DNA from: an uncultured Verrucomicrobiae bacterium | GTDB taxonomy: Bacteria > Verrucomicrobiota > Verrucomicrobiia > Chthoniobacterales > UBA10450 | Length of the DNA stretch: 64,000 nucleotides | Direction of reading: 5' to 3' | Assembly: GCA_963735805.1 (NCBI GenBank) | Contig: CAVTMK010000001.1 | Span: forward strand, 128,001 to 192,000 | Shown here: piece after piece, positions 26,423 to 40,884 of the stretch | Numbering within the stretch: the stretch's first letter is position 1 | Layout: each line of letters begins with the position of its first letter | Notes under the pieces: generated by a model | Databases searched by the model: none | What the model was told of the DNA's origin: nothing | The model's input: only the letters and a program-made list of their open reading frames with translations | Program-made: the position numbers and the translations under genes

Positions 26423-26574
26423 CTCTAACGAAAAAGAGACAAGTCATACCTAGCGTTTTAATAAAGCCAGCCGGAACGGGTGGAGTATAAGTGGGAAACC
26501 GAAGATCGAATGAGCCTGATGGGTGAGTCACGTTGCATCGTAATGGCGCTTTCGGTCTCGTCGTATGGTTAACG
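26423..26574 (-). repeat. attC site, degenerate
   Basis: Minus CGTTAAC-CATAC...ACTTGTC-TCTTTTTC-GTTAGAG. Confidence 0.6.
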
Positions 26575-27047
26575 CGCGCCCATGTCATGAATTCGACCCG
26601 AAAACGAGAGAATGCAAAGTAAGGCGAAGGCTGTGACAAAGACCCCGTGAAAGCTCACGTGCAACGTGTCCGGTCGAATGCCGTTGCGGGCTGGAAGGAA
26701 TGCGTGTGTTTGTGCGAACCGGACTCGGTAACGCTCAGTGCGCAGCGGGTCTTTTACAAAAAGATAAGGAACCCACAAGTTCGGAGCACGCCGTATAGGC
26801 CAGTACCGTAACTCAGCCACAGCAACCACAGTAACCAAGCCGGAAAGTGAGCTTTAACATAGTAAACGCTCGCAGCAAATGCGACTGCAAATGGCAGCGT
26901 ACTGAGCGTTGTGACAAAAAGGAGCTTTCCCGTCGTGTCCGCTGCGCGAATGCCTTCGAGATTGTTTAACTTACCGAGAGGGATCCAGTCATGCAGCGCG
27001 ATGAAGAGCACGACAAGCAGTTGACACACAAGAAAGGCGTAAATCAT
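26569..27047 (-). pseudogene. Frameshifted membrane-protein cassette gene
   Basis: Two overlapping ORFs join (GVLRT-W-WVPYLF) if one G is restored near 26776; stop lies in the attC inverse core. Confidence 0.7.
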
Positions 27048-27053
27048 CGAGCG

Positions 27054-27158
27054 CCCTAATGAGAGCGAGATAAGGCCCCTGACCACTTGAGGCAAGAGAT
27101 TGGCTTTGTTCGCCAGCCTAACGAAAGCCCCCGAGCCGGGTTCATCAACTGGTTAGAC
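27054..27158 (-). repeat. attC site, core mutated to ATT
   Basis: Minus GTCTAAC-CAGTT-GATGAACC...CCTTATC-TCGCTCTC-ATTAGGG. Confidence 0.75.
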
Positions 27159-27290
27159 CTACTCGTGTGGCCTGGGTCAGTGTCATCGCAACCCGGCTCC
27201 TGGAATTCTTTACGCCACTGGGCGTGACGATCACCACAGGTCGCTTTCAATCCGTAAGGCGGCTCAATCGATCTGGGGACGATCACTGCA

Positions 27291-27869
27291 CTAATCATTC
27301 AATCCCTTTCCACTAAGAATCTCCTGCATACATTTTTCAACCCTTAACTCCCGGGTTTTGGACTGTTTGGCTCCAGAAAAATAAAGAATGTATCCTCTTT
27401 GCCTTCCCGGCGTCAGTGCATCAAAAGCAGTTTTCAAGGCAGGCACTTCATCTAGTTTATTTTGAAATTCCTCAGGAATAGGTTCCGGATTCCTTTTGTA
27501 ATTTACCTTTAAACCGGCCTTTTCCACTTCAATGGCTTCATAGATATAGGCTTTCAAGATGGGTTCTTTCTCAGTTATTTCTCGCACATCGGTGAACGGA
27601 ATCCGCCGTGCCGCCTGCCAGCCAAATTTTCTAAGGATACTATTGCGATCATTTAACAAGGCACCTTTGCAAAACAGAAGAGCGCAGAATTCTTTAAATC
27701 CCTGTATTATAACTATGTTACTTTTCTGAAACGTGTAACAAGGTTTACCCCACTTCAATTCTTCGGTCAGCCCACAGTCAAGACTGATCCTTCTCAATGT
27801 CTTCATTTCGTTCTGCCACTTTTTGGTTTTTCTTAAATATTCATCAACCTGAGGATTCATTTTATTCAT
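27291..27869 (-). CDS. YdeI/OmpD-associated (DUF1801) family protein
   Basis: LTEELKWGKPCY, FDALTPGRQRGYILYFSGAKQSKTR. Confidence 0.9.
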   Translation of the reverse strand: MNKMNPQVDEYLRKTKKWQNEMKTLRRISLDCGLTEELKWGKPCYTFQKSNIVIIQGFKEFCALLFCKGALLNDRNSILRKFGWQAARRIPFTDVREITEKEPILKAYIYEAIEVEKAGLKVNYKRNPEPIPEEFQNKLDEVPALKTAFDALTPGRQRGYILYFSGAKQSKTRELRVEKCMQEILSGKGLND

Positions 27870-27927
27870 TTGTTGATAGACTGAAATAAAGTAAGCCTCG
27901 ATTAGGCAATCTAAAAATCGTGAAGTT

Positions 27928-29751
27928 TCACCGCGTCGCGTTCTTCTTCGCCGTGATCGGCGCGAGTGAAGCAACAATTTCTTCAAAGCGCGGATCGCCT
28001 CGCAGCGGATCCCAAAACGGATCCAGACGTATTTCGCCATAGGAGACGCCTGCGGGAAGTCTTGCCAGTGTTTGCAATTGCTGGATCGCCTCATCGCGTT
28101 CTCCCGTCCACGCACAGATCACCGAATAAAAATAAAGGACTTCTGTGCCGTTGAGGGCATCTTTGGTTGCAGGGAGAAGCTCCACTGCCCTGCGACCTTC
28201 CCGAAGCGCTTCTTCGTTCCGCCCAAGCGATGCATCTATTAAGCCCAGGAAACAGAGCTTCGAAGCGTCATCAGGCGCTTTGCGTACTGCCTCTTCCTGC
28301 TCTGCGCGCGCGCCGCTAAAGGCTGCGGACGCGCCGGCTGCGTCTCCCTTCATTCGAGCGACTAACCCTTTAGCGTAAGCCGGGCTAAATTTGACCGTGC
28401 CGATTCCCCTGGCATTCATCACCGGATAATCCAGCGTGGCGAGAGCGCGCTCGGCGGCCACCGGGTCGCGTTCGTACAGACTCACAAAGAAGCGCGCGCG
28501 CGTCAGATCTCTCGCCGAGGCAGGATTCTCAGCGAGAATCTTTTCGAGAACCGCATGCCATGGACGGGTATCGGCCTGTTCATGGAAGTCGATCCAGACC
28601 GGCAGCAACCGCGCATAATTGTTCCTTGTCGGGAGCGCAAGGCCGCGATTAGCAATCTCTCTGGCTCGTTTATACTCGCGCGCGCAAAGATAGGTGAACC
28701 CCGTCCCGAAAAGGATATCATCATTTCGGGGATCCAACTCCACTGCACGTTCGAGGTTATGAAGGGCATCGTCCCAGCGACCCTGTCTTCGATCGATATA
28801 TCCGTTCAGCTCAAAGATTCGCGCATTGTTTGGCAAAGTGCGTACTGCGACGGTGAGCTCGTCCCGGGCGCGCTCGTAATCGAGGTAACCGTAGTAAAAG
28901 TGCAGGGCGGCGGCGAAATGTGCCTCGCCCGAATCCGGGTTTAATTGCAAAGCGGAATTTACTGCCGACTTGGCTAATTCAAGACGGCCCGGCGAGTGAT
29001 CGAGCGCATTCCAGTAGATCCCGTCGTGGGCTCTGGCCAACTGGCAGTATGCCAGAAGAAAAGTCGGATCCCGCGCGATTGCCTGATTGAGTAACTCGAC
29101 AGCTTTGAAAAGATTCGTCTCGCTGCTGAGGCCGTAATAGAGGGACTCTTCAATCAAAGGGACGGCGTGGACATAAAGGTCGTAAGCAACAAGATCTTTG
29201 GTGGGGTGTTCTTGCATCGCTGTTGTTTCGTAAGCTGAAACCTTGACTCCAAGCCGATTCGCGACCGCTTCCGCCACCTCCGCCTCAATCGCGAACACTT
29301 CATTCAAATCGCGATCGTATTCCCCTGCCCAGACGTGTGTGCCGGTGCGAGCATTCACGAGACGCGCATTGACGTGCACCTTGCCGCCGTAACGCCGCAC
29401 AGTGCCATCCAGCAGGTTTAAAACGCCCAGCGCCCTCCCAACCTGGCGCGGATCCTGATTACCACGGTAATGCATGACGCTGGTGTGGCTGATGACCTTG
29501 AGCTCGGAAATTCTTGCCAGCTTGGTCAAAATGTCGTCCTGCACGCCATCGGCAAAAAATGCGTCGTCGTTGTTATAGCTCAGGTTTTCAAACGGCAAGA
29601 CGGCGATGCTCTTCTCCTTTTTTGCAGCACTTGAGACTGATCCGGCGATTGCCGAATGCTTGCGCAGTGATGGGAAAAGGAAAAACGCCGTGGCGCCGAC
29701 AACCAGGATAGCAACTGCCAGAGCGACAATGGCACGACGCTCTTTACTCAT
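27928..29751 (-). CDS. Membrane-anchored TolB-like/TPR protein
   Basis: N-terminal TM, EKSIAVLPFENLS, TPR repeats, LDPFWDPLRGDPRF end. Confidence 0.85.
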   Translation of the reverse strand: MSKERRAIVALAVAILVVGATAFFLFPSLRKHSAIAGSVSSAAKKEKSIAVLPFENLSYNNDDAFFADGVQDDILTKLARISELKVISHTSVMHYRGNQDPRQVGRALGVLNLLDGTVRRYGGKVHVNARLVNARTGTHVWAGEYDRDLNEVFAIEAEVAEAVANRLGVKVSAYETTAMQEHPTKDLVAYDLYVHAVPLIEESLYYGLSSETNLFKAVELLNQAIARDPTFLLAYCQLARAHDGIYWNALDHSPGRLELAKSAVNSALQLNPDSGEAHFAAALHFYYGYLDYERARDELTVAVRTLPNNARIFELNGYIDRRQGRWDDALHNLERAVELDPRNDDILFGTGFTYLCAREYKRAREIANRGLALPTRNNYARLLPVWIDFHEQADTRPWHAVLEKILAENPASARDLTRARFFVSLYERDPVAAERALATLDYPVMNARGIGTVKFSPAYAKGLVARMKGDAAGASAAFSGARAEQEEAVRKAPDDASKLCFLGLIDASLGRNEEALREGRRAVELLPATKDALNGTEVLYFYSVICAWTGERDEAIQQLQTLARLPAGVSYGEIRLDPFWDPLRGDPRFEEIVASLAPITAKKNATR

Positions 29752-29810
29752 TTACTTGTCTCTCAGCTCACACGGTTCCTGGACATAAACATCCCTTCGA
29801 CAACCCGAAA

Positions 29811-29933
29811 GCCTGACGAGAACAAGATGAACTGAGGCGAGCGAAGGCGCGCGTGGCTACGGGTCCCTGGGTTGGACGCATGTGAAGCTGGATATTACGC
29901 CGGCTCGCGGTCGGCTCCATTGCATGCTTAGGC
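29811..29933 (-). repeat. attC site, both cores mutated
   Basis: Minus GCCTAAG-CATGC-AATGGAGC...GTTCATC-TTGTTCTC-GTCAGGC. Confidence 0.75.
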
Positions 29934-29940
29934 GCTGGCA

Positions 29941-30339
29941 TCAACGCAATGCGCTCCCTTTTTTCCATGCACTGCGCACAAACCAAAGCGTGCCGACTGT
30001 TCCGGAAAGGAGAAAGGCGAATGTTCCCATGCCAATAATGAGAGAGACAACATTCGGCACAGGCCATGGTTCAAAGCCGCGTGCCCGCAGAAGGTTTTTG
30101 TAGTGAAAGGCCTGGTACGCCGCGCTGGCAAACCTGACAAAAAGAATCACCGAGGCGAAGGCATAAAGACCGGAGACTAAGCGATACAGCGCACGATCAA
30201 AGCGCCGTTCAGCTACGTAGGTGGCGATGAGCACCGCGAAGGTCAAGGTAATCCAAATTTGAAAAATGGAATCGGTCAGAGCGAGCGTCGCGTAAAGTGT
30301 GCTGTAAATTGCTTCCTGAGATATTGGAGTCGCGGGCAT
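29941..30339 (-). CDS. Small membrane protein (cassette)
   Basis: 132 aa, about three TM helices, bounded by attC sites. Confidence 0.75.
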   Translation of the reverse strand: MPATPISQEAIYSTLYATLALTDSIFQIWITLTFAVLIATYVAERRFDRALYRLVSGLYAFASVILFVRFASAAYQAFHYKNLLRARGFEPWPVPNVVSLIIGMGTFAFLLSGTVGTLWFVRSAWKKGSALR

Positions 30340-30346
30340 ACGGCAG

Positions 30347-30470
30347 GCCTAACGGGATGGAACTGAGCCACCTCTCACGAGAGCGAGCGCGGGAAATATC
30401 GAAAACTGTTTCATAAGATCAAACGTGGACTTCACGACGGACAGCGGTTGGCTTCAGCGACTGGTTAGGC
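30347..30470 (-). repeat. attC site, intact cores
   Basis: Minus GCCTAAC-CAGTC-GCTGAAGC...GCTCAGT-TCCATCCC-GTTAGGC. Confidence 0.88.
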
Positions 30471-30761
30471 CGATGAGGTGGTGTTATCATGTGGCTGCGA
30501 TGGAACTCCGCGTCGTCGAGAGCGAAGACACTCGCAGATGAACAACAACACCGCGAGCAAAAAGCCGATGACGGCGATGGCGCTGAAAATCATTGTGGCG
30601 TGGAAGGCTGCGAAAACCCACGCTGCTTGCGGCGAGAACTTCGAGTGCTCACCCGGTAGCTGACTCGCTCCGATCAAGCGATACTCGATGAAGACAAGTA
30701 CTCCGTAGGTGACTGCATAAGCGGCCAGCACCACAACGACCGCGTGCCGGAAACCCTTCAT
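30465..30761 (-). CDS. Small membrane protein (cassette)
   Basis: ATG 2 nt after core GTTAGAC; TAA inside GCCTAAC. Confidence 0.75.
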   Translation of the reverse strand: MKGFRHAVVVVLAAYAVTYGVLVFIEYRLIGASQLPGEHSKFSPQAAWVFAAFHATMIFSAIAVIGFLLAVLLFICECLRSRRRGVPSQPHDNTTSSA

Positions 30762-30763
30762 CC

Positions 30764-30793
30764 GTCTAACGAGAATCGAGCAGATTTCATGAG
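30764..30793 (-). repeat. attC core end followed by the start of a mini-insert; rest of the site missing
   Basis: Plus GTCTAAC-GAGAA-TCGAGCAGATT, the same junction as at 32348. Confidence 0.6.
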
Positions 30794-30862
30794 CTTCCGG
30801 TCAGTCTCCACCATCCACGCCCTGCTGTTCCGTGAAATCATCTCCAAGCCCCTGGCGTAACC

Positions 30863-31735
30863 CTAGGGAGGTCGCGGTGTGCGAGTAGGCTGCGGTGTTA
30901 AAGTTGGCACTGGCGTAGACGTTGGCGTAACAGTAGGTGAAGGTGCGGATGTGGACGAGGGGGTGGCACTCGGCGTAGGGCTACCGGCCGGAGTAGGACT
31001 AATAGTAACTATCGGAGGTGTTTCCTCCGCTCCCTCATTTCGTTCTTTTTTATAAGTGATAAGAAGCGTGGCACCCGCCACTGGAGGGATCTTTGCTTCA
31101 GCCGGACCTGCAATGACTACCTGGTTACCCACTTCCGGGAAATTTTGCGAATTAATGCCAGTGCTGGAATCGATTCGAGTCGCGGTAAGAACATTCGCGA
31201 TCACCCCAGTATTACCACCCAGGGGCACACGGACGACGCCGTGGTCGGTGCCTCCTTCTTGAGTAAAATTTATGATGTTGAGGAAGCGATCTTCAGGGAC
31301 TGGGATGTTGAGCTGCGAAGTTGTAACGATCTTGCTTTTGAATTCTCCGTCGTTTGGTTCTTTTTTGTAAGTGATAAGAAGCGTGGCACCCGCTACCGGA
31401 AGGGCCTCCGCTTGAGCCGGACCTGCAATGACCACCTGATTAGCGATTTCCGGTAAATTTTGCGAATTAATGCCCGTGCTAAAGTCGATTCGAGTCGCGC
31501 TAAGAACATTCGTGGTGCCGCCGGCATCGCCACTCAGAGTGACACGGACGACGCCGCGGTCGGTACCCCCTTCCTGAGTAAAATTTATGATCTTAAGGAA
31601 GCGATCTTCAGGGACTGGGATTGTAAGCGGTGAAGTTGTAATGACCCTGGTCTTGAATCCTGCCGCAAAAATAAAGCCAGTATTCAGGAGAAAGAAGGCA
31701 GTCAACCAACGGCTGAGATACATTTTCTTCGTCAT
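30863..31735 (-). CDS. Secreted protein with two tandem 105-aa domains and a Pro/Thr tail
   Basis: Signal peptide; internal duplication with 315-bp period. Confidence 0.8.
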   Translation of the reverse strand: MTKKMYLSRWLTAFFLLNTGFIFAAGFKTRVITTSPLTIPVPEDRFLKIINFTQEGGTDRGVVRVTLSGDAGGTTNVLSATRIDFSTGINSQNLPEIANQVVIAGPAQAEALPVAGATLLITYKKEPNDGEFKSKIVTTSQLNIPVPEDRFLNIINFTQEGGTDHGVVRVPLGGNTGVIANVLTATRIDSSTGINSQNFPEVGNQVVIAGPAEAKIPPVAGATLLITYKKERNEGAEETPPIVTISPTPAGSPTPSATPSSTSAPSPTVTPTSTPVPTLTPQPTRTPRPP

Positions 31736-31832
31736 ATACCTGGACACCGCACAAGCAAATTAGAATCGATCGTCGTCACGTCAATGGGACTGTAACCAGA
31801 GGCCAGCAGAAAAATCAGTGAGCGGTGCATAC

Positions 31833-31958
31833 ATCTAACGAGACAGAGCTCAGCCACCGCTCCCGGAGCGAGGTTGCGCCCAATTGAGAATACAGTAATC
31901 AGGATCGGGATCGACACGCAACGCCAAAGAGCGGTCGACTGGGTGCGATTAGTCAGGG
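31833..31958 (-). repeat. attC site, inverse core mutated
   Basis: Minus CCCTGAC...GGTG-GCTGAGC-TCTGTCTC-GTTAGAT. Confidence 0.75.
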
Positions 31959-32342
31959 CTCGCACTTAAATTCTCTGAACAGGCCCACATATTCGTACTG
32001 ATTGATAAGCTGGATTTCTTCGATGCAACCAAGCCGTCCTGCATGAGTGAGCTTTCGGTAAGTCCCTGATAGATTTTCGAACTCCTCGTCTAATTCAGGT
32101 GAAACCTTAAACCGAGCGGACGCACTTTCAGACTTTAGAGTAATGTCCAGCTCATAGGTGACGCCTTTGTTCTCGACGTCCAAAAGAGTGCCTTTTAAAT
32201 GTTCACCGCTACGTGTTAACGAACCCTGTGCTTGCTGGGTATGCCACGCATAGTCACTCGTAACCCAAATCAGCTTCCAGTCCTCGGCTCTTAGAGATCC
32301 AGCAAAGGACAATACCAATACGAGCGTGTATATTTTTTTCAT
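31953..32342 (-). CDS. Secreted hypothetical protein (cassette)
   Basis: MKKIYTLVLVLSFAGSLRA signal peptide; start just after GTTAGGG; stop in CCCTGAC. Confidence 0.75.
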   Translation of the reverse strand: MKKIYTLVLVLSFAGSLRAEDWKLIWVTSDYAWHTQQAQGSLTRSGEHLKGTLLDVENKGVTYELDITLKSESASARFKVSPELDEEFENLSGTYRKLTHAGRLGCIEEIQLINQYEYVGLFREFKCEP

Positions 32343-32359
32343 GCAAGCCCTAACGGGAA

Positions 32360-32433
32360 TCGAGCAGATTGGGAATCTGCGAGATGGACGGGATAGCGCG
32401 GGAGGCGAATGAGTTGGGAAGATCATGAGTCAA
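32360..32433 (+). mobile_element. 74-bp non-coding insert in the attC spacer
   Basis: TCGAGCAG...GAGTCAA; removal restores CCCTAAC-GGGAAAGA-GATAAGC-CAC. Confidence 0.65.
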
Positions 32434-32504
32434 AGAGATAAGCCACGGGTTGGGTCGGGCAATACGCTGAGCTTATTTCGGAATCGGGTCAACTTGCTTG
32501 CGAA

Positions 32505-32657
32505 TGGAGCCGCGGGACGGCAGCGACATACCTGGGCAAACCGAGAGGTCGAATAGAGCTTAACGGGGAAAGCGACATAGAAGTTAAAGCTGCGAGGGAA
32601 GAAGCGAGCGCGTTGGGAAAGGAGCGAGTTTCAAATGAGCGGGAGCGAATGAGTCAA
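32505..32657 (+). mobile_element. 153-bp non-coding insert in the attC variable region
   Basis: TGGAGCC...AGCGACATA (x2)...GAGCGGGAGCGAATGAGTCAA. Confidence 0.6.
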
Positions 32658-32733
32658 GGCTTTCGGAGTAGGCTTCATCGATTGGTTAGACCGAAGGGCA
32701 TATGGCTCCGGTCGCGAACTCTTGGTTGAGACG

Positions 32734-33222
32734 TCAGGGTTCCTTCAAGTCCACGTTATGATAAGACACTATGCTCCATTCGCCTTTGTCTTTTACGAAC
32801 ACCTCTTGCAGTCGCGTGCGAATTTTGCCATCGGCCATGCTCTTTACGCCAGGCGGCGTCCTTTGAATCCCGCTCAATTCTGTAGAGATATCGACGATTG
32901 CTACGGCAGGCCGAACGAAACGAATCTTGCTCACCGACATCGCCAGTTTACTCCCTTTGAAAATCGTTTTGAAGATTTCGGCGTGCCGATCTTCGAAGGC
33001 TCGATGGCCATAAAATACCGTTCCACGAATGTTGGTAAAGCTCCCGTCTTCAGCGAACCTCTGCGAAAAAGCCTTTGCATCGCCCACGTTCCACGCCGCA
33101 ACTTCCTCGGCGACGATCTGACGAAGGCGCGATTCATCGTCGGATGATTGCGCTGCGACAGGTAGCCCAGTGGCAATGATTAGTAAATGCGCTGAGAGGA
33201 TGCTTACTAGTTTTCTTTTCAT
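32734..33222 (-). CDS. SgcJ/EcaC-like (NTF2/DUF4440) protein (cassette)
   Basis: AWNVGDAKAFSQRFAEDGSFTNIRG...WSIVSYHN. Confidence 0.88.
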   Translation of the reverse strand: MKRKLVSILSAHLLIIATGLPVAAQSSDDESRLRQIVAEEVAAWNVGDAKAFSQRFAEDGSFTNIRGTVFYGHRAFEDRHAEIFKTIFKGSKLAMSVSKIRFVRPAVAIVDISTELSGIQRTPPGVKSMADGKIRTRLQEVFVKDKGEWSIVSYHNVDLKEP

Positions 33223-33237
33223 ACCGTGAGAATTGAG

Positions 33238-33417
33238 GTCTAACGAGAAAGAGATAAGCCACAGCTAGCGTTGAACAGCAATACGACGGGAGTGCGCGAG
33301 TTCGAAGGGACGAATCGCACTAGGGAACCCGGGCACCTGGGTGAAATCCAGGGTGCCGTGGCAAGCTTGCTCGCGCTCACTCCGTCAGGGGCTGTTGGCT
33401 TCATCGACTGGTTAGGC
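33238..33417 (-). repeat. attC site, intact (180 bp)
   Basis: Minus GCCTAAC-CAGTC-GATGAAGC-CAACAGC...GCTGTG-GCTTATC-TCTTTCTC-GTTAGAC. Confidence 0.9.
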
Positions 33418-33418
33418 G

Positions 33419-33730
33419 TCAGCGACTCCATCGTTTGCTTGATGACAAATAGGCGCATATGAGACACACCACTGCAGTGCTGATCAAAAGGGTAGCCAAC
33501 ACAACCCCCAGGTCTCCGTCCCAAGCCCTGACAAAGAGAGTTGGAACCGCCACAATGGTGAGCGTAAGCAACATTACGGGAATAGCGCTCGGGCGGGCAA
33601 AATTGATCGTCCAACCCATCCACTTTAAACGCTTCGGCACAATTACCCGCGGATCGGCCTTGCAATAATAGACGCCCCACTTCCGATTCTCCGGGTCTTT
33701 CCAATAAGCTTCGAGTTCTTCGCGTGTCAT
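33419..33730 (-). CDS. DUF5808-like membrane protein (cassette)
   Basis: WGVYYCKADPRVIVPKR...GWTINFA. Confidence 0.82.
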   Translation of the reverse strand: MTREELEAYWKDPENRKWGVYYCKADPRVIVPKRLKWMGWTINFARPSAIPVMLLTLTIVAVPTLFVRAWDGDLGVVLATLLISTAVVCLICAYLSSSKRWSR

Positions 33731-33747
33731 AATATATCCCCGCTCAC

Positions 33748-33876
33748 GTCTAACGAGACGCAAGATCAGTGACCGTGAGGCCGGCAAAACGTAACTTGCA
33801 GCGTAAGGGTAGATGGTAAACACAAACAACGTAGATCGAAACGCCGTTCGCGGTCCGCTGCATCGCGTGGTTAGAT
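33748..33876 (-). repeat. attC site, intact cores
   Basis: Minus ATCTAAC-CACGC-GATGCAGC-GGACCGCG...CACGGTC-ACTGATC-TTGCGTCTC-GTTAGAC. Confidence 0.88.
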
Positions 33877-33897
33877 GTTTTCGCTGTGGTCACTTCG

Positions 33898-34743
33898 TTA
33901 TTTCACGTCGAGGGGCTTTCGCGTCCATGCACCAAATTGAATTGGCCCCAGGATTTGACTTCCGGCAGCTACCACTTCGTCTTCTAAGCGTCTTGCGAGT
34001 GTCTTATCAGCGGTGACCCCTTTAGGTAGCGCAAGTCCCATTTGCTCGAGGCGCGGAGTGACACTAATCAGCGTATTCGCTATCCAGCGATACAGATATG
34101 AATCGTGCCCGCCGCCGGCGACCGATTCGGCAAGAACGGTGGGAAATGGCAAGCCGGCGTCGAGAAATGCCCCGGCCACGCGGCGACCGTAATCAGGTGG
34201 ATTTCCCGAACGGCGGAACGCTTCGCTGAGTAGTCCGTAAATCTCGTCCCAAAACGCGCACTGAGGGTCGCTCGAGTGAGTGTTGGCAAAATCCATTTCG
34301 TGGAACACAACAATGCCGCGAGGTTTCAAAAATTTCAGCAGACGACGGATGATGGCTCCGGGATCTTGCTGGTAAAGTAAAATGTAACGGCCGACGATTG
34401 CGTCGAACTGATCTGCGGCGTCGAACTCAGCAAGGTTGCTGGCCTCGAAGGTAACCCAGGAAGAACAGCCCTGTTTACGACTGCGCTCGCGCGCCTTCTC
34501 CAGTCCCGCGGCATCCTGGTCAACTCCCAGCACCCACCCTCCTGGTCCGACGATCTCGCCTGCCAGGAACGCTACGTCACCCATTCCTGAGCCAATCTCG
34601 AGGACGCGCATTCCTGGGCTAACTCCGGCAAATCGGAAAAACTTGTCTGTGAACGGGCGAATTATCTTGGCCTGAAATGTCAACCGTTCATATTCATACT
34701 CCGATTGACCCAGAATGTAATTGCCTTCGGTTTTCGAAGCCAT
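33898..34743 (-). CDS. Class I SAM-dependent methyltransferase (cassette)
   Basis: MRVLEIGSGMGD, FDAIVGR, LKPRG. Confidence 0.9.
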   Translation of the reverse strand: MASKTEGNYILGQSEYEYERLTFQAKIIRPFTDKFFRFAGVSPGMRVLEIGSGMGDVAFLAGEIVGPGGWVLGVDQDAAGLEKARERSRKQGCSSWVTFEASNLAEFDAADQFDAIVGRYILLYQQDPGAIIRRLLKFLKPRGIVVFHEMDFANTHSSDPQCAFWDEIYGLLSEAFRRSGNPPDYGRRVAGAFLDAGLPFPTVLAESVAGGGHDSYLYRWIANTLISVTPRLEQMGLALPKGVTADKTLARRLEDEVVAAGSQILGPIQFGAWTRKPLDVK

Positions 34744-34834
34744 CCGACTCTTCAGCTTATTCAGTTAGAGCGCCATCGTCAGCCGTTAAATTAGGGAATG
34801 ACCTTCGAGTCTTAGGTCGAATTCTGTCGAGACC

Positions 34835-34958
34835 ATCTAAGAAGACGGAGTTGAGCCACCGCTGGCAGCGGCGAGCGTGGCGAATTCTCTAAACGGTTTC
34901 GTAAAATCAAATCTGCGCACCAGGACCGCCGGCGGTTGGCTCGAGCGATTTGTTAGAC
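34835..34958 (-). repeat. attC site, core mutated to CTT
   Basis: Minus GTCTAAC-AAATC-GCTCGAGC-CAACCGC...GCGGTG-GCTCAAC-TCCGTCTT-CTTAGAT. Confidence 0.82.
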
Positions 34959-35254
34959 GCGTTCGCGGCATCGCCTTGAAGCTATCTTTCGATCGGGAGT
35001 CGCGAACTCGACAGCCTCAATGTCCAGACTGCGCTTGTAGTCATGTTCTGTGGAAATACCAATCGCAATGTCCTTCGGCGAATTCTTTGTAAAACGCTCC
35101 ATCTCTGCGTCAGCAGCGTCTTTCGCCCGGAAGACGATTGCTTTCGCGGTGATGAGCCATCGCCGCTGACTGCGGTGGCACCTTTTGGTGTCGCCGCAGT
35201 CACGTTGAACGCCAACGCAACGAACGCCGATAGGGCAATGCAGCGCGCTAGCAT
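34953..35254 (-). pseudogene. Probably frameshifted small secreted-protein cassette gene
   Basis: ATG overlaps core GTTAGATG; an alternate frame after GDGSSP runs open (KAIVFRAKD...) to the TAA in GTCTAAC. Confidence 0.55.
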
Positions 35255-35290
35255 CTAACGAGACAGAGATAAGCCACGCCTAGGGTTGAA
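35253..35290 (-). repeat. Truncated attC (L'-R' half) at the array start
   Basis: Minus GTG-GCTTATC-TCTGTCTC-GTTAGAT; no other half before the SDR stop. Confidence 0.75.
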
Positions 35291-35301
35291 CACAACATAG
35301 A

Positions 35302-40752: not shown

Positions 40753-40884
40753 TGCAGGGCGTCTGTGTCAGACGCCATTCCACAACCCGGCGCTTGACGG
40801 GATGGAACAGCCGGGACGCGAGCGACATAGACGGGCTGCTCGTTAGAGCGACAGAGCGGGAGCGAACGAGTCAAACGCCCTACA
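40753..40884. repeat. GTAG-type REP inverted pair containing an insert
   Basis: TGCAGGGCGTCTGTGTCAGACGCC...GGCGCTTGAC[insert]ACGCCCTACA. Confidence 0.65.
40803..40874 (+). mobile_element. 72-bp non-coding insert, same family as 32505
   Basis: TGGAACAGCCGGGACGCGAGCGACATAG...GAGCGGGAGCGAACGAGTCAA. Confidence 0.65.

What the first reader, a model, noticed from the sequence alone, without database searches (positions are those of the whole stretch)
32348..32691. Tiny non-coding elements without terminal repeats inserted into an attC site
Seen: this attC is 344 bp long. Removing 32360-32433 restores CCCTAAC-GGGAAAGA-GATAAGC-CAC, nearly identical to GTCTAAC-GAGAAAGA-GATAAGC-CAC at 33238. Also removing 32505-32657 leaves an ordinary 117-bp site. 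Both inserts follow GAA, begin T(C/G)GAGC, end ATGAGTCAA, are purine-rich on one strand and lack terminal inverted repeats. Established: IS608 of the IS200/IS605 family ends in TCAA, moves as ssDNA and makes no target duplication; IS1111-attC elements target attC. Inference: a possibly undescribed non-autonomous element family that parasitises hairpin DNA and could immobilise cassettes.
Basis: partly seen in the sequence, partly recalled or inferred. Interest (0 to 1): 0.85.

Follow-up and report, generated by a model that had tools for sequence, protein, structure and literature searches.

The report
Tiny self-nesting mobile hairpins in Chthoniobacterales
The two inserts are copies of a family of 70-80-base non-coding DNA pieces that fold into hairpins, jump around the genomes of common soil bacteria and pile up inside integron recombination sites; the enzyme that moves them is still unknown.

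Summary
The 344-bp attC holds three elements, not two: a 74-nt one (32359-32432), and a 72-nt one with an 81-nt one nested inside it (32504-32656). They belong to a dispersed family: 38 model hits in this genome, a left-end match in 97 of 121 genomes of the host family, and none in 148 other genomes of the phylum. Copies run ATSGAGC...TCA, insert at (G/C)A|A, and have no terminal inverted repeats and no target duplication of 2 nt or more. They fold on the purine strand into three covarying hairpins in which tandem G·A steps swap with Watson-Crick pairs. Mobility is shown by empty alleles, nesting, tandem arrays and near-identical copies at unrelated sites. No long copy or cognate transposase was found; TnpB and IS91 are nearly absent from the family and RT was not found in this genome. 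Best guess: ssDNA cut-and-paste by a Y1/HUH enzyme in trans (about 0.45). It is a new variant of small, TIR-less non-autonomous elements.

The parts
32348..32691 (+). attC site of the SnoaL-like cassette. The + strand is the bottom (recombining) strand; cassette genes are on the - strand. 344 bp with inserts, 117 bp without.
   Evidence: IntI lies elsewhere in the genome at C2:1278239
32359..32432 (+). Element subtype C (74 nt here, 75 nt usual), inserted at GA|A in the R'-L' spacer
   Evidence: model hit 48.8 bits (this copy is in the model's training set); 92% copy at C2:1258298; 76 attC sites with this subtype at this position
32504..32552 (+). Element subtype A, left part (49 nt)
   Evidence: uninterrupted 72-nt copy at C3:8776-8847
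32553..32633 (+). Element subtype B (81 nt), nested at GA|A inside subtype A
   Evidence: alignment A2 of 39 copies; free-standing copies, e.g. C2:155299 and C4:585563
32634..32656 (+). Element subtype A, right part (23 nt, ends TCA)
32493..32668 (+). 24-nt REP-like hairpin (arms about 32493-32503 and 32657-32668), itself an addition to the basic 96-bp attC; the A/B nest sits inside it
   Evidence: empty 120-bp allele at C2:1275871; 15 pattern matches in the genome
32734..33222 (-). Cassette gene that owns the attC (SnoaL_3/DUF4440, 162 aa)
31953..32342 (-). Next cassette gene (129 aa, no Pfam hit). An 89%-identical copy in G325 is preceded by a different, unfilled attC.
33238..33417 (+).
40802..40873 (+). 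Further family copy (subtype A, 72 nt) inside the inverted partner of a GTAG-type REP pair
   Evidence: model hit 62.9 bits; sequence
30775..30793 (+). Truncated subtype-C start in a broken attC remnant
   Evidence: (family D16)

Best explanation
A lineage-restricted family of very small non-autonomous mobile DNA elements (60-111 nt, peaks at 72 and 80-81 nt). On its purine-rich strand each copy folds into a 5' hairpin, followed by a three-way junction whose closing stem ends at the 3' TCA, so both ends sit at the feet of helices. Stems tolerate tandem G·A steps in place of Watson-Crick pairs, and loops carry GGG or DNA mini-hairpin motifs. Shown: mobility, ends, target, fold, nesting, accumulation in attC. 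Inferred: the element moves as single-stranded DNA. An enzyme supplied in trans, most likely one of the domesticated Y1/HUH (TnpA-REP-like) proteins common in this family, nicks at an S-A step at both ends and at the target and joins by strand transfer. That gives scar-free insertion, head-to-tail stacking and possibly precise excision. Copies survive where tolerated: attC, REPs, tRNA-end and thiC-end duplicates, intergenic repeats, and in frame in a gene. They can then hitch-hike when those host repeats are copied.
For: Ends and target: 176 of 199 left ends had a right end within 60-111 nt, and 5 more were outer members of nests. Junctions were GA|A in 137 and CA|A in 28 of 176 (for 30 source loci the search pattern forced the left A). 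TIR matches averaged 1.8 of 12 (310 distinct copies). A 2-nt duplication was seen in 3 of 328 and a 4-5-nt one in 0. Mobility: stepwise attC series 96-120-192-252-300-344-417-566 bp; exact empty allele of an in-frame 75-nt insert; filled and empty alleles of one cassette; 16 pairs 92-96% identical at unrelated flanks; tandem arrays and nests. Fold: 82.7% of cells paired and 176 two-sided changes, 0 of 500 shuffles as high; subtype B 84.7% and 55. One stem step is GA/GA in 40, Watson-Crick or wobble in 25, otherwise in 12 of 77. The purine strand folds lower than its complement in 170 of 171. DNA rather than RNA: middle-hairpin loops are GNA in 21, GNRA in 11 and GNYA in 6 of 92; GNA/GNNA mini-hairpins are far more stable as DNA (PMC13037366, passages); outside attC there is no orientation to transcription (47 vs 47); no RT was found in the genome. 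Enzyme: TnpA-REP enzymes cut at dinucleotides, including CA and, with a changed guide, GA (PMC8266576, passages). Y1 genes occur in 112 of 121 family genomes, TnpB over cut-off in 1 and IS91-type in 2. Element and Y1 counts correlate weakly (rho 0.36, 0.27 per Mb, n 118); the 9 genomes without Y1 hold at most 3 copies.
Against: No cognate enzyme was found. None of 30 Y1 loci from five high-copy genomes is bounded by element ends; the 22 Y1 flanks printed show their own palindromes or no element ends. Of 308 neighbouring ORFs scanned, 2 are Y1, and in both the element sits inside a separate GTAG repeat. No unpaired guide complementary to the cut site is evident among invariant columns (by eye). 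No clear replichore bias was seen, by eye. Single copies do not fold better than shuffles (z -1.8, 0.9, 1.1). G·T did not outnumber A·C in stems (70 vs 94, sensitive to alignment register). 54 of 92 middle loops fit neither loop class. No pair at unrelated sites exceeded 96% identity, so current activity is not shown. Related copies inflate the covariation counts.
Confidence: 0.45

Rival explanations
1. Same mobile ssDNA element, but moved by a host or repeat-associated nuclease not yet recognised (for example a GIY-YIG protein), or by a structure-driven pathway in which the whole folded body, not only the ends, is the substrate.
For: No transposase is linked to it. The interior hairpins covary too, which ends-only recognition would not need. 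Ten GIY-YIG matches lie in the genome. It is confined to one family although Y1 genes are widespread.
Against: No candidate is enriched next to copies (308 ORFs). The interior length varies from 60 to 111 nt. Scar-free ends at a fixed dinucleotide are what HUH strand transfer gives.
Confidence: 0.27
2. Mostly passive spread: a few old insertions were amplified when attC sites, REPs and tRNA-end repeats were copied, and the fold is kept for a host function, such as keeping the host hairpin foldable or binding a protein.
For: The same A+B nest sits at one attC position in 5 sites of this genome with unrelated genes. Subtype C is confined to one attC class: 61 vs 1, against 24 vs 39 empty sites offering the same target, using hand-made classes. 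Two target contexts recur 17 times each.
Against: Near-identical copies sit at unrelated flanks. There are 154 distinct target contexts. Nested and tandem insertions of different subtypes occur. One cassette carries different element loads in different hosts.
Confidence: 0.1
3. Miniature derivative moved by the IS110/IS1111 recombinase that also sits in attC sites of this genome, using an A-A core.
For: Three IS110-family genes are present, two of them inside attC. All four junctions read S-A-A. IS1111 members target attC and REP (PMC11187229, passages).
Against: The IS110 inserts at a different attC position, and its ends do not resemble the element (by eye; no model hit at those ends). RNA-guided targeting implies one long target, whereas these targets share only 3 nt. 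18 of 328 junctions lack the second A.
Confidence: 0.08
4. A small structured RNA copied back into DNA (retro-element or intron-like), perhaps spliced out of transcripts.
For: GNRA-type loops occur. The RNA fold of the purine strand is more stable than that of its complement in 166 of 171. The 3' end resembles NCA.
Against: No RT was found in this 94%-complete genome. There is no strand bias to transcription. Hits in thiC and tRNA lie in duplicated 3' fragments beside intact copies. The best-supported gene insertion is in frame. No Rfam match at the element.
Confidence: 0.07

Closest known systems
PATEs, palindrome-associated transposable elements derived from IS200/IS605 (Haloquadratum; PMC3119063, passages)
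   Same: Non-coding, no TIRs, no target duplication, hairpins at the ends, as short as 52 bp, often found nested with other mobile elements.
   Different: PATE ends match IS605-type transposons of the host group and follow a 4-5-nt target. Here no matching IS was found, TnpB is almost absent, the target is about 3 nt spanning the cut, and the whole body is a covarying three-hairpin fold with tandem G·A steps.
REP/BIME/REPIN with TnpA-REP (RAYT) (PMC8266576, PMC3733652, 10.1101/279083; passages and named sections)
   Same: Dispersed hairpin DNA, strand-specific, probable HUH chemistry at a dinucleotide, in-frame entry into genes.
   Different: No GTAG foot; 70-80-nt branched fold instead of a 20-50-nt stem-loop; does not flank the RAYT genes; it inserts into the host's own GTAG REPs.
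IS1111-attC and IS110 elements (PMC11187229, passages); group IIC-attC introns (PMC3001079, search listing only)
   Same: Occupy attC sites without a target duplication.
   Different: No ORF, no sub-terminal repeats, no RT; several attC positions and many non-attC targets.
Small mobile repeats SMR-A/B (PMC3119063), Rickettsia RPEs (as summarised in PMC3733652) and cyanobacterial small dispersed repeats (Elhai et al. 2008: named in an earlier scan note, otherwise recalled; paper not held)
   Same: Tiny, enzyme unknown, insert into other repeats or in frame in genes.
   Different: SMRs have inverted terminal repeats; RPEs are palindromes; SDRs are recalled as much shorter. Sequence relationship to any of them was not tested.

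Membership tests
PATE / IS200-IS605 derivative | No terminal inverted repeats | tested here: met
   mean 1.8 of 12 matches, maximum 5, 310 distinct copies
PATE / IS200-IS605 derivative | No target duplication | tested here: inconclusive
   2 nt or more excluded (3 of 328 at 2 nt, 0 at 4-5 nt; GA|T variant against the canonical attC); a single A cannot be excluded
PATE / IS200-IS605 derivative | Hairpins near both ends on one strand | tested here: met
   the hairpins are terminal rather than sub-terminal
PATE / IS200-IS605 derivative | Fixed 4-5-nt target 5' of the left end, chosen by a guide 5' of the hairpin | tested here: not met
   only positions -2, -1 and +1 are strongly conserved; the left end starts at the hairpin foot
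PATE / IS200-IS605 derivative | Ends shared with a tnpA/tnpB-bearing IS in the host group | tested here: not met
   0 of 30 Y1 loci bounded by these ends; TnpB domain over cut-off in 1 of 121 genomes; no transposase recognised by eye downstream of 14 left ends listed without a right end
PATE / IS200-IS605 derivative | Orientation bias to the replication fork | tested here: inconclusive
   mixed orientations by eye on weakly skewed draft contigs; no formal test
PATE / IS200-IS605 derivative | Single-stranded circular intermediate | not testable with these tools
   only assembled contigs were available
REP / REPtron | GTAG-type tetranucleotide followed by a 20-50-nt palindrome | tested here: not met
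   alignments A1 and A2
REP / REPtron | Cognate repeats flank the tnpA-REP gene | tested here: not met
   both RAYT genes of this genome are flanked by GTAG REPs; 2 Y1 among 308 neighbours, both explained by insertion in a GTAG repeat
REP / REPtron | Cleavage and joining at a dinucleotide by a Y1 enzyme | not testable with these tools
   junctions are compatible with an S-A cut; needs biochemistry
IS110 / IS1111-attC | DEDD transposase gene, or ends shared with such an IS | tested here: not met
IS110 / IS1111-attC | One specific, RNA-selected target site | tested here: not met
   154 distinct target contexts; several attC positions
MITE | Terminal inverted repeats related to a transposon | tested here: not met
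Group IIC-attC intron / retro-element | RT gene and intron-sized ribozyme | tested here: not met
   60-111 nt; no RVT_1 match in this genome; no Rfam hit at the element
Cyanobacterial small dispersed repeats (SDR) | Published sequence and size classes | not tested
   paper not held; not mentioned in two reviews searched

The most novel reading that the evidence does not exclude
This is one member of a widespread, undescribed class of 'folded-DNA' mobile elements. They are defined by a whole-body ssDNA structure built on tandem G·A helices and mini-hairpin loops, carry no gene, have no autonomous parent, and are moved at S-A steps by a host enzyme. They are tolerated inside attC because they fold out of the recombining bottom strand (88 vs 2 by orientation, about six vs one independent positions). 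That would make them natural barcodes for how attC sites are copied into new cassettes.
Probability: 0.3. Interest if true: 0.85.

Novelty: new variant of a known kind. Interest (0 to 1): 0.64.

Why it matters
It defines, with precise ends, a consensus fold and a 3-nt target, a new family of minimal mobile DNA in one of the commonest groups of soil bacteria. The covarying swap between G·A tandems and Watson-Crick pairs is comparative evidence that non-canonical ssDNA helices are under selection in a chromosome. The system is small enough to test with oligonucleotides, which bears on the open question of how REP-like repeats spread. Filled attC sites of 170-570 bp, found behind dozens of unrelated genes, give markers for cassette genesis and attC copying, and they warn that attC detectors with length limits will miss such sites.

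Tried and rejected
Search for an autonomous copy: neighbour clustering over 128 regions, Pfam on 226 + 82 neighbouring ORFs, left ends without right ends and orphan right ends, and Y1 flanks all gave nothing. One Y1 gene lies between two copies (L230). This was rejected as a cognate pair: both copies are inside GTAG repeats of a duplicated block of about 860 bp, and the Y1 has its own palindromes. Splicing was rejected because the thiC and tRNA hits are in duplicated 3' fragments. General hairpin targeting: null. G·T versus A·C asymmetry: not supportive. Energy z-scores of single copies: not significant. Free-energy folding of filled attC did not recover the R-box pairing in the long sites; the model does not credit G·A tandems, so this was not used either way. 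The hand-written structure for A2 had three mis-registered pairs (columns 10, 11, 43). Rfam: no relevant match. Phage and plasmid collections: no match. Viral contigs: one match, without the usual flank or right end. Acidobacteria copies are 1-3 per genome, mostly on single contigs, possibly mis-binned or transferred. Several non-Verrucomicrobia hits lack the left A and the right end and were treated as chance. No RNA holder was listed. The 81-nt skip in run X5 may come from another copy and was not used. Literature: 10 searches listed no description of this family; most subscription papers and all bioRxiv supplements were outside reach, and no supplements were read.

Full report
OBSERVATION. 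The attC at 32348-32691 is 344 bp. Removing the two segments leaves 117 bp whose start matches the site at 33238. Contigs from a second soil run of the same study reproduce the stretch. The window is C1:128001-192000 of a 3.5-Mb, 94%-complete genome.

ANATOMY. There are three elements. Subtype C (32359-32432) sits in the R'-L' spacer. Subtype A (32504-32552 plus 32634-32656) carries subtype B (32553-32633) inside it; subtype A alone is at C3:8776-8847. The target of A is a 24-nt hairpin repeat that is itself an addition to a basic 96-bp attC. Of 33 attC-like stretches listed in the genome, 8 carry elements. They form a series of 96, 120, 192, 252, 300, 344, 417 and 566 bp (two of the 33 rows merge neighbouring sites). 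A further copy lies at 40802-40873 in a GTAG-type REP pair.

A FAMILY. A covariance model built from 77 copies gives 38 hits at E below 0.01 in this genome. The left-end pattern occurs in 97 of 121 genomes of the family, with 0 matches of the reversed control. That tally and those include two genomes marked unpublished, G007 and G014; without them it is 95 of 119, and no other claim rests on them. In a phylum sample the model hit 2 of 150 genomes, both of this family; only 33 candidates per genome were scored. No match was found in the phage or plasmid collections or, at the element, in Rfam.

ENDS AND TARGET. Of 199 left ends, 176 had a right end at 60-111 nt and 5 were outer members of nests. 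Junctions were GA|A 137, CA|A 28, GA|C, GA|G or GA|T 7, and other 4 (30 source loci came from a pattern that forced the left A). Which side one A belongs to cannot be told, so a 1-nt duplication is not excluded; longer ones are. There are no terminal inverted repeats, and the strand is 68% purine.

FOLD. The purine strand forms a 5' hairpin and a three-way junction closed by a short stem that ends at the terminal TCA. On 77 subtype A/C copies, 82.7% of cells pair and 176 show two-sided changes; none of 500 shuffles reach this, and slid controls give 19-42%. Subtype B behaves alike. Related copies inflate such counts. The striking feature is one stem step that is GA opposite GA in 40 copies, a normal double pair in 25 and neither in 12: tandem G·A steps stand in for base pairs. 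Middle-hairpin loops are GNA in 21, GNRA in 11, GNYA in 6 and other or unassigned in 54 of 92. GNA and GNNA mini-hairpins are much more stable as DNA than as RNA (PMC13037366, passages). With no orientation to transcription outside attC (47 vs 47), this points modestly to folding as ssDNA. Against: single copies do not beat shuffles in energy, and G·T pairs did not outnumber A·C.

MOBILITY. It is shown by empty alleles: the 120-bp attC; a gene with an in-frame 75-nt copy in two relatives and an exact empty site here; and one cassette filled in L308, L336, L353/L375 and L356 but empty in L328. It is also shown by nests and head-to-tail arrays and by 16 pairs of 92-96% identical copies at unrelated flanks. 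No pair above 96% was seen, so present activity is not shown.

WHAT IT TARGETS. Recurrent hosts are attC, GTAG REPs, CGTC-like repeats (label recalled from PMC3733652, section 4), repeats of tRNA 3' ends beside intact tRNAs and duplicated thiC ends. Yet 154 dereplicated empty sites fold no better than 301 nearby or 400 genomic controls. Survival in dispensable repeats explains the pattern as well as hairpin targeting does.

INSIDE attC. Targeted searches yielded 76 distinct attC sites with subtype C at the same spacer position, 96.8% identical to their consensus (65 full-length copies). Their 43 recoverable genes fall in 35 clusters. The insert is confined to one attC class although another offers the same target (61 vs 1 filled, 24 vs 39 empty; hand-made classes, 14 and 59 unclassed). 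One filled cassette precedes three different neighbours. This argues against strict immobilisation but does not settle it, because the empty allele shows that insertion or precise loss happened after that cassette arose. Elements lie on the bottom strand in 88 cases and on the top strand in 2, among 109 attC sites of which 66 were filled; targets are about equally available on both strands. The sample is enriched for subtype C, and the independent positions are about six against one, so this is a lead only.

THE ENZYME. Not found. The genome holds an IntI, two RAYT-type Y1 genes with their own GTAG REPs, three IS110 genes and ten GIY-YIG matches; no RT match was found. None of 30 Y1 loci from five high-copy genomes is bounded by element ends. 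Of 308 neighbouring ORFs, 2 are Y1, both explained by a copy sitting in a GTAG repeat. Across the family, Y1 is in 112 of 121 genomes, TnpB over cut-off in 1 and IS91-type in 2.

MECHANISM. All four junctions read S-A(-A), the ends are scar-free and the fold is strand-specific. This fits HUH nicking and strand transfer at a dinucleotide, as shown for TnpA-REP, one of which cuts at CA and, with a changed guide, at GA (PMC8266576, first part of the text and passages). Several Y1 subclasses have no known cognate repeat (10.1101/279083, passages). I put a Y1 enzyme in trans at about 0.45, an unrecognised host enzyme or structure-driven route at 0.27, mainly passive copying at 0.10, IS110 at 0.08 and an RNA route at 0.07. 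That the element is mobile DNA I hold at about 0.9.

COMPARISON AND NOVELTY. It works like a PATE (PMC3119063, passages) or a REP, but fails defining tests for both, and for MITEs, IS1111-attC and attC introns (see the membership table). Ten literature searches listed no description; subscription papers and supplements were not seen. Earlier unchecked notes of this scan describe look-alike small elements in other phyla, one inserting at GA|A; I could not compare sequences, and they are leads, not support. Verdict: a real, apparently undescribed family and a new variant of small TIR-less non-autonomous elements; interest 0.64.

Noticed in passing
G000 C2:245.5-246.7 kb and C1:22.4-23.6 kb (L002, L003): An IS110-family element (309-aa transposase, long non-coding region upstream) inserted at one position of the 96-bp attC class. 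A remnant of its end remains in the 108-bp attC at C2:1536819.
   Followed up: partly
window 26424-35300: Cassette array on the - strand with about ten attC-like sites and no integrase in the window (CALIN-like). The only IntI over the cut-off is on C2 at 1278239.
   Followed up: partly
window 33262-33385 and G000 C2:1264438, 1269567, 1272238: Further purine-rich modules of other types inside attC variable regions, not matched by the element pattern; possibly more insert families.
   Followed up: no
window 31953-32426 (- strand): The subtype-C insert supplies an upstream in-frame ATG that extends the next cassette's ORF from 129 to 157 codons; ORF callers may mis-start this gene.
   Followed up: partly
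L200, L219, L012, L023, L025, L034: Tandem repeats of tRNA 3' ends (period 144 bp in L200 and L219) downstream of an intact tRNA, each carrying an element in the T-loop copy.
   Followed up: partly
L124:1501-1790 and L106:1393-1560: Duplicated 3' ends of thiC, suggesting an integration site, each with an element at a different position.
   Followed up: partly
G000 C2:1241191-1242007: Three GIY-YIG matches with identical scores at a 308-bp period, suggesting a tandem repeat of one small gene.
   Followed up: no
window 31030-31644: 300-bp direct repeat (84%) inside a 294-aa Pro/Thr-rich cassette ORF.
   Followed up: no
window 26424-26573: Degenerate attC-like site with a purine-rich stretch ending GAGTCA; possibly a decayed insert.
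   Followed up: no
alignments A1, A2: G-runs in the hairpin loops are nearly invariant (GGG in all three loops of subtype B); whether they are protein contacts or a G-tetrad contact is unexplained.
   Followed up: no
L321, L392: The only two top-strand insertions in attC, both at one site in the long variable region of the roughly 125-bp class.
   Followed up: partly
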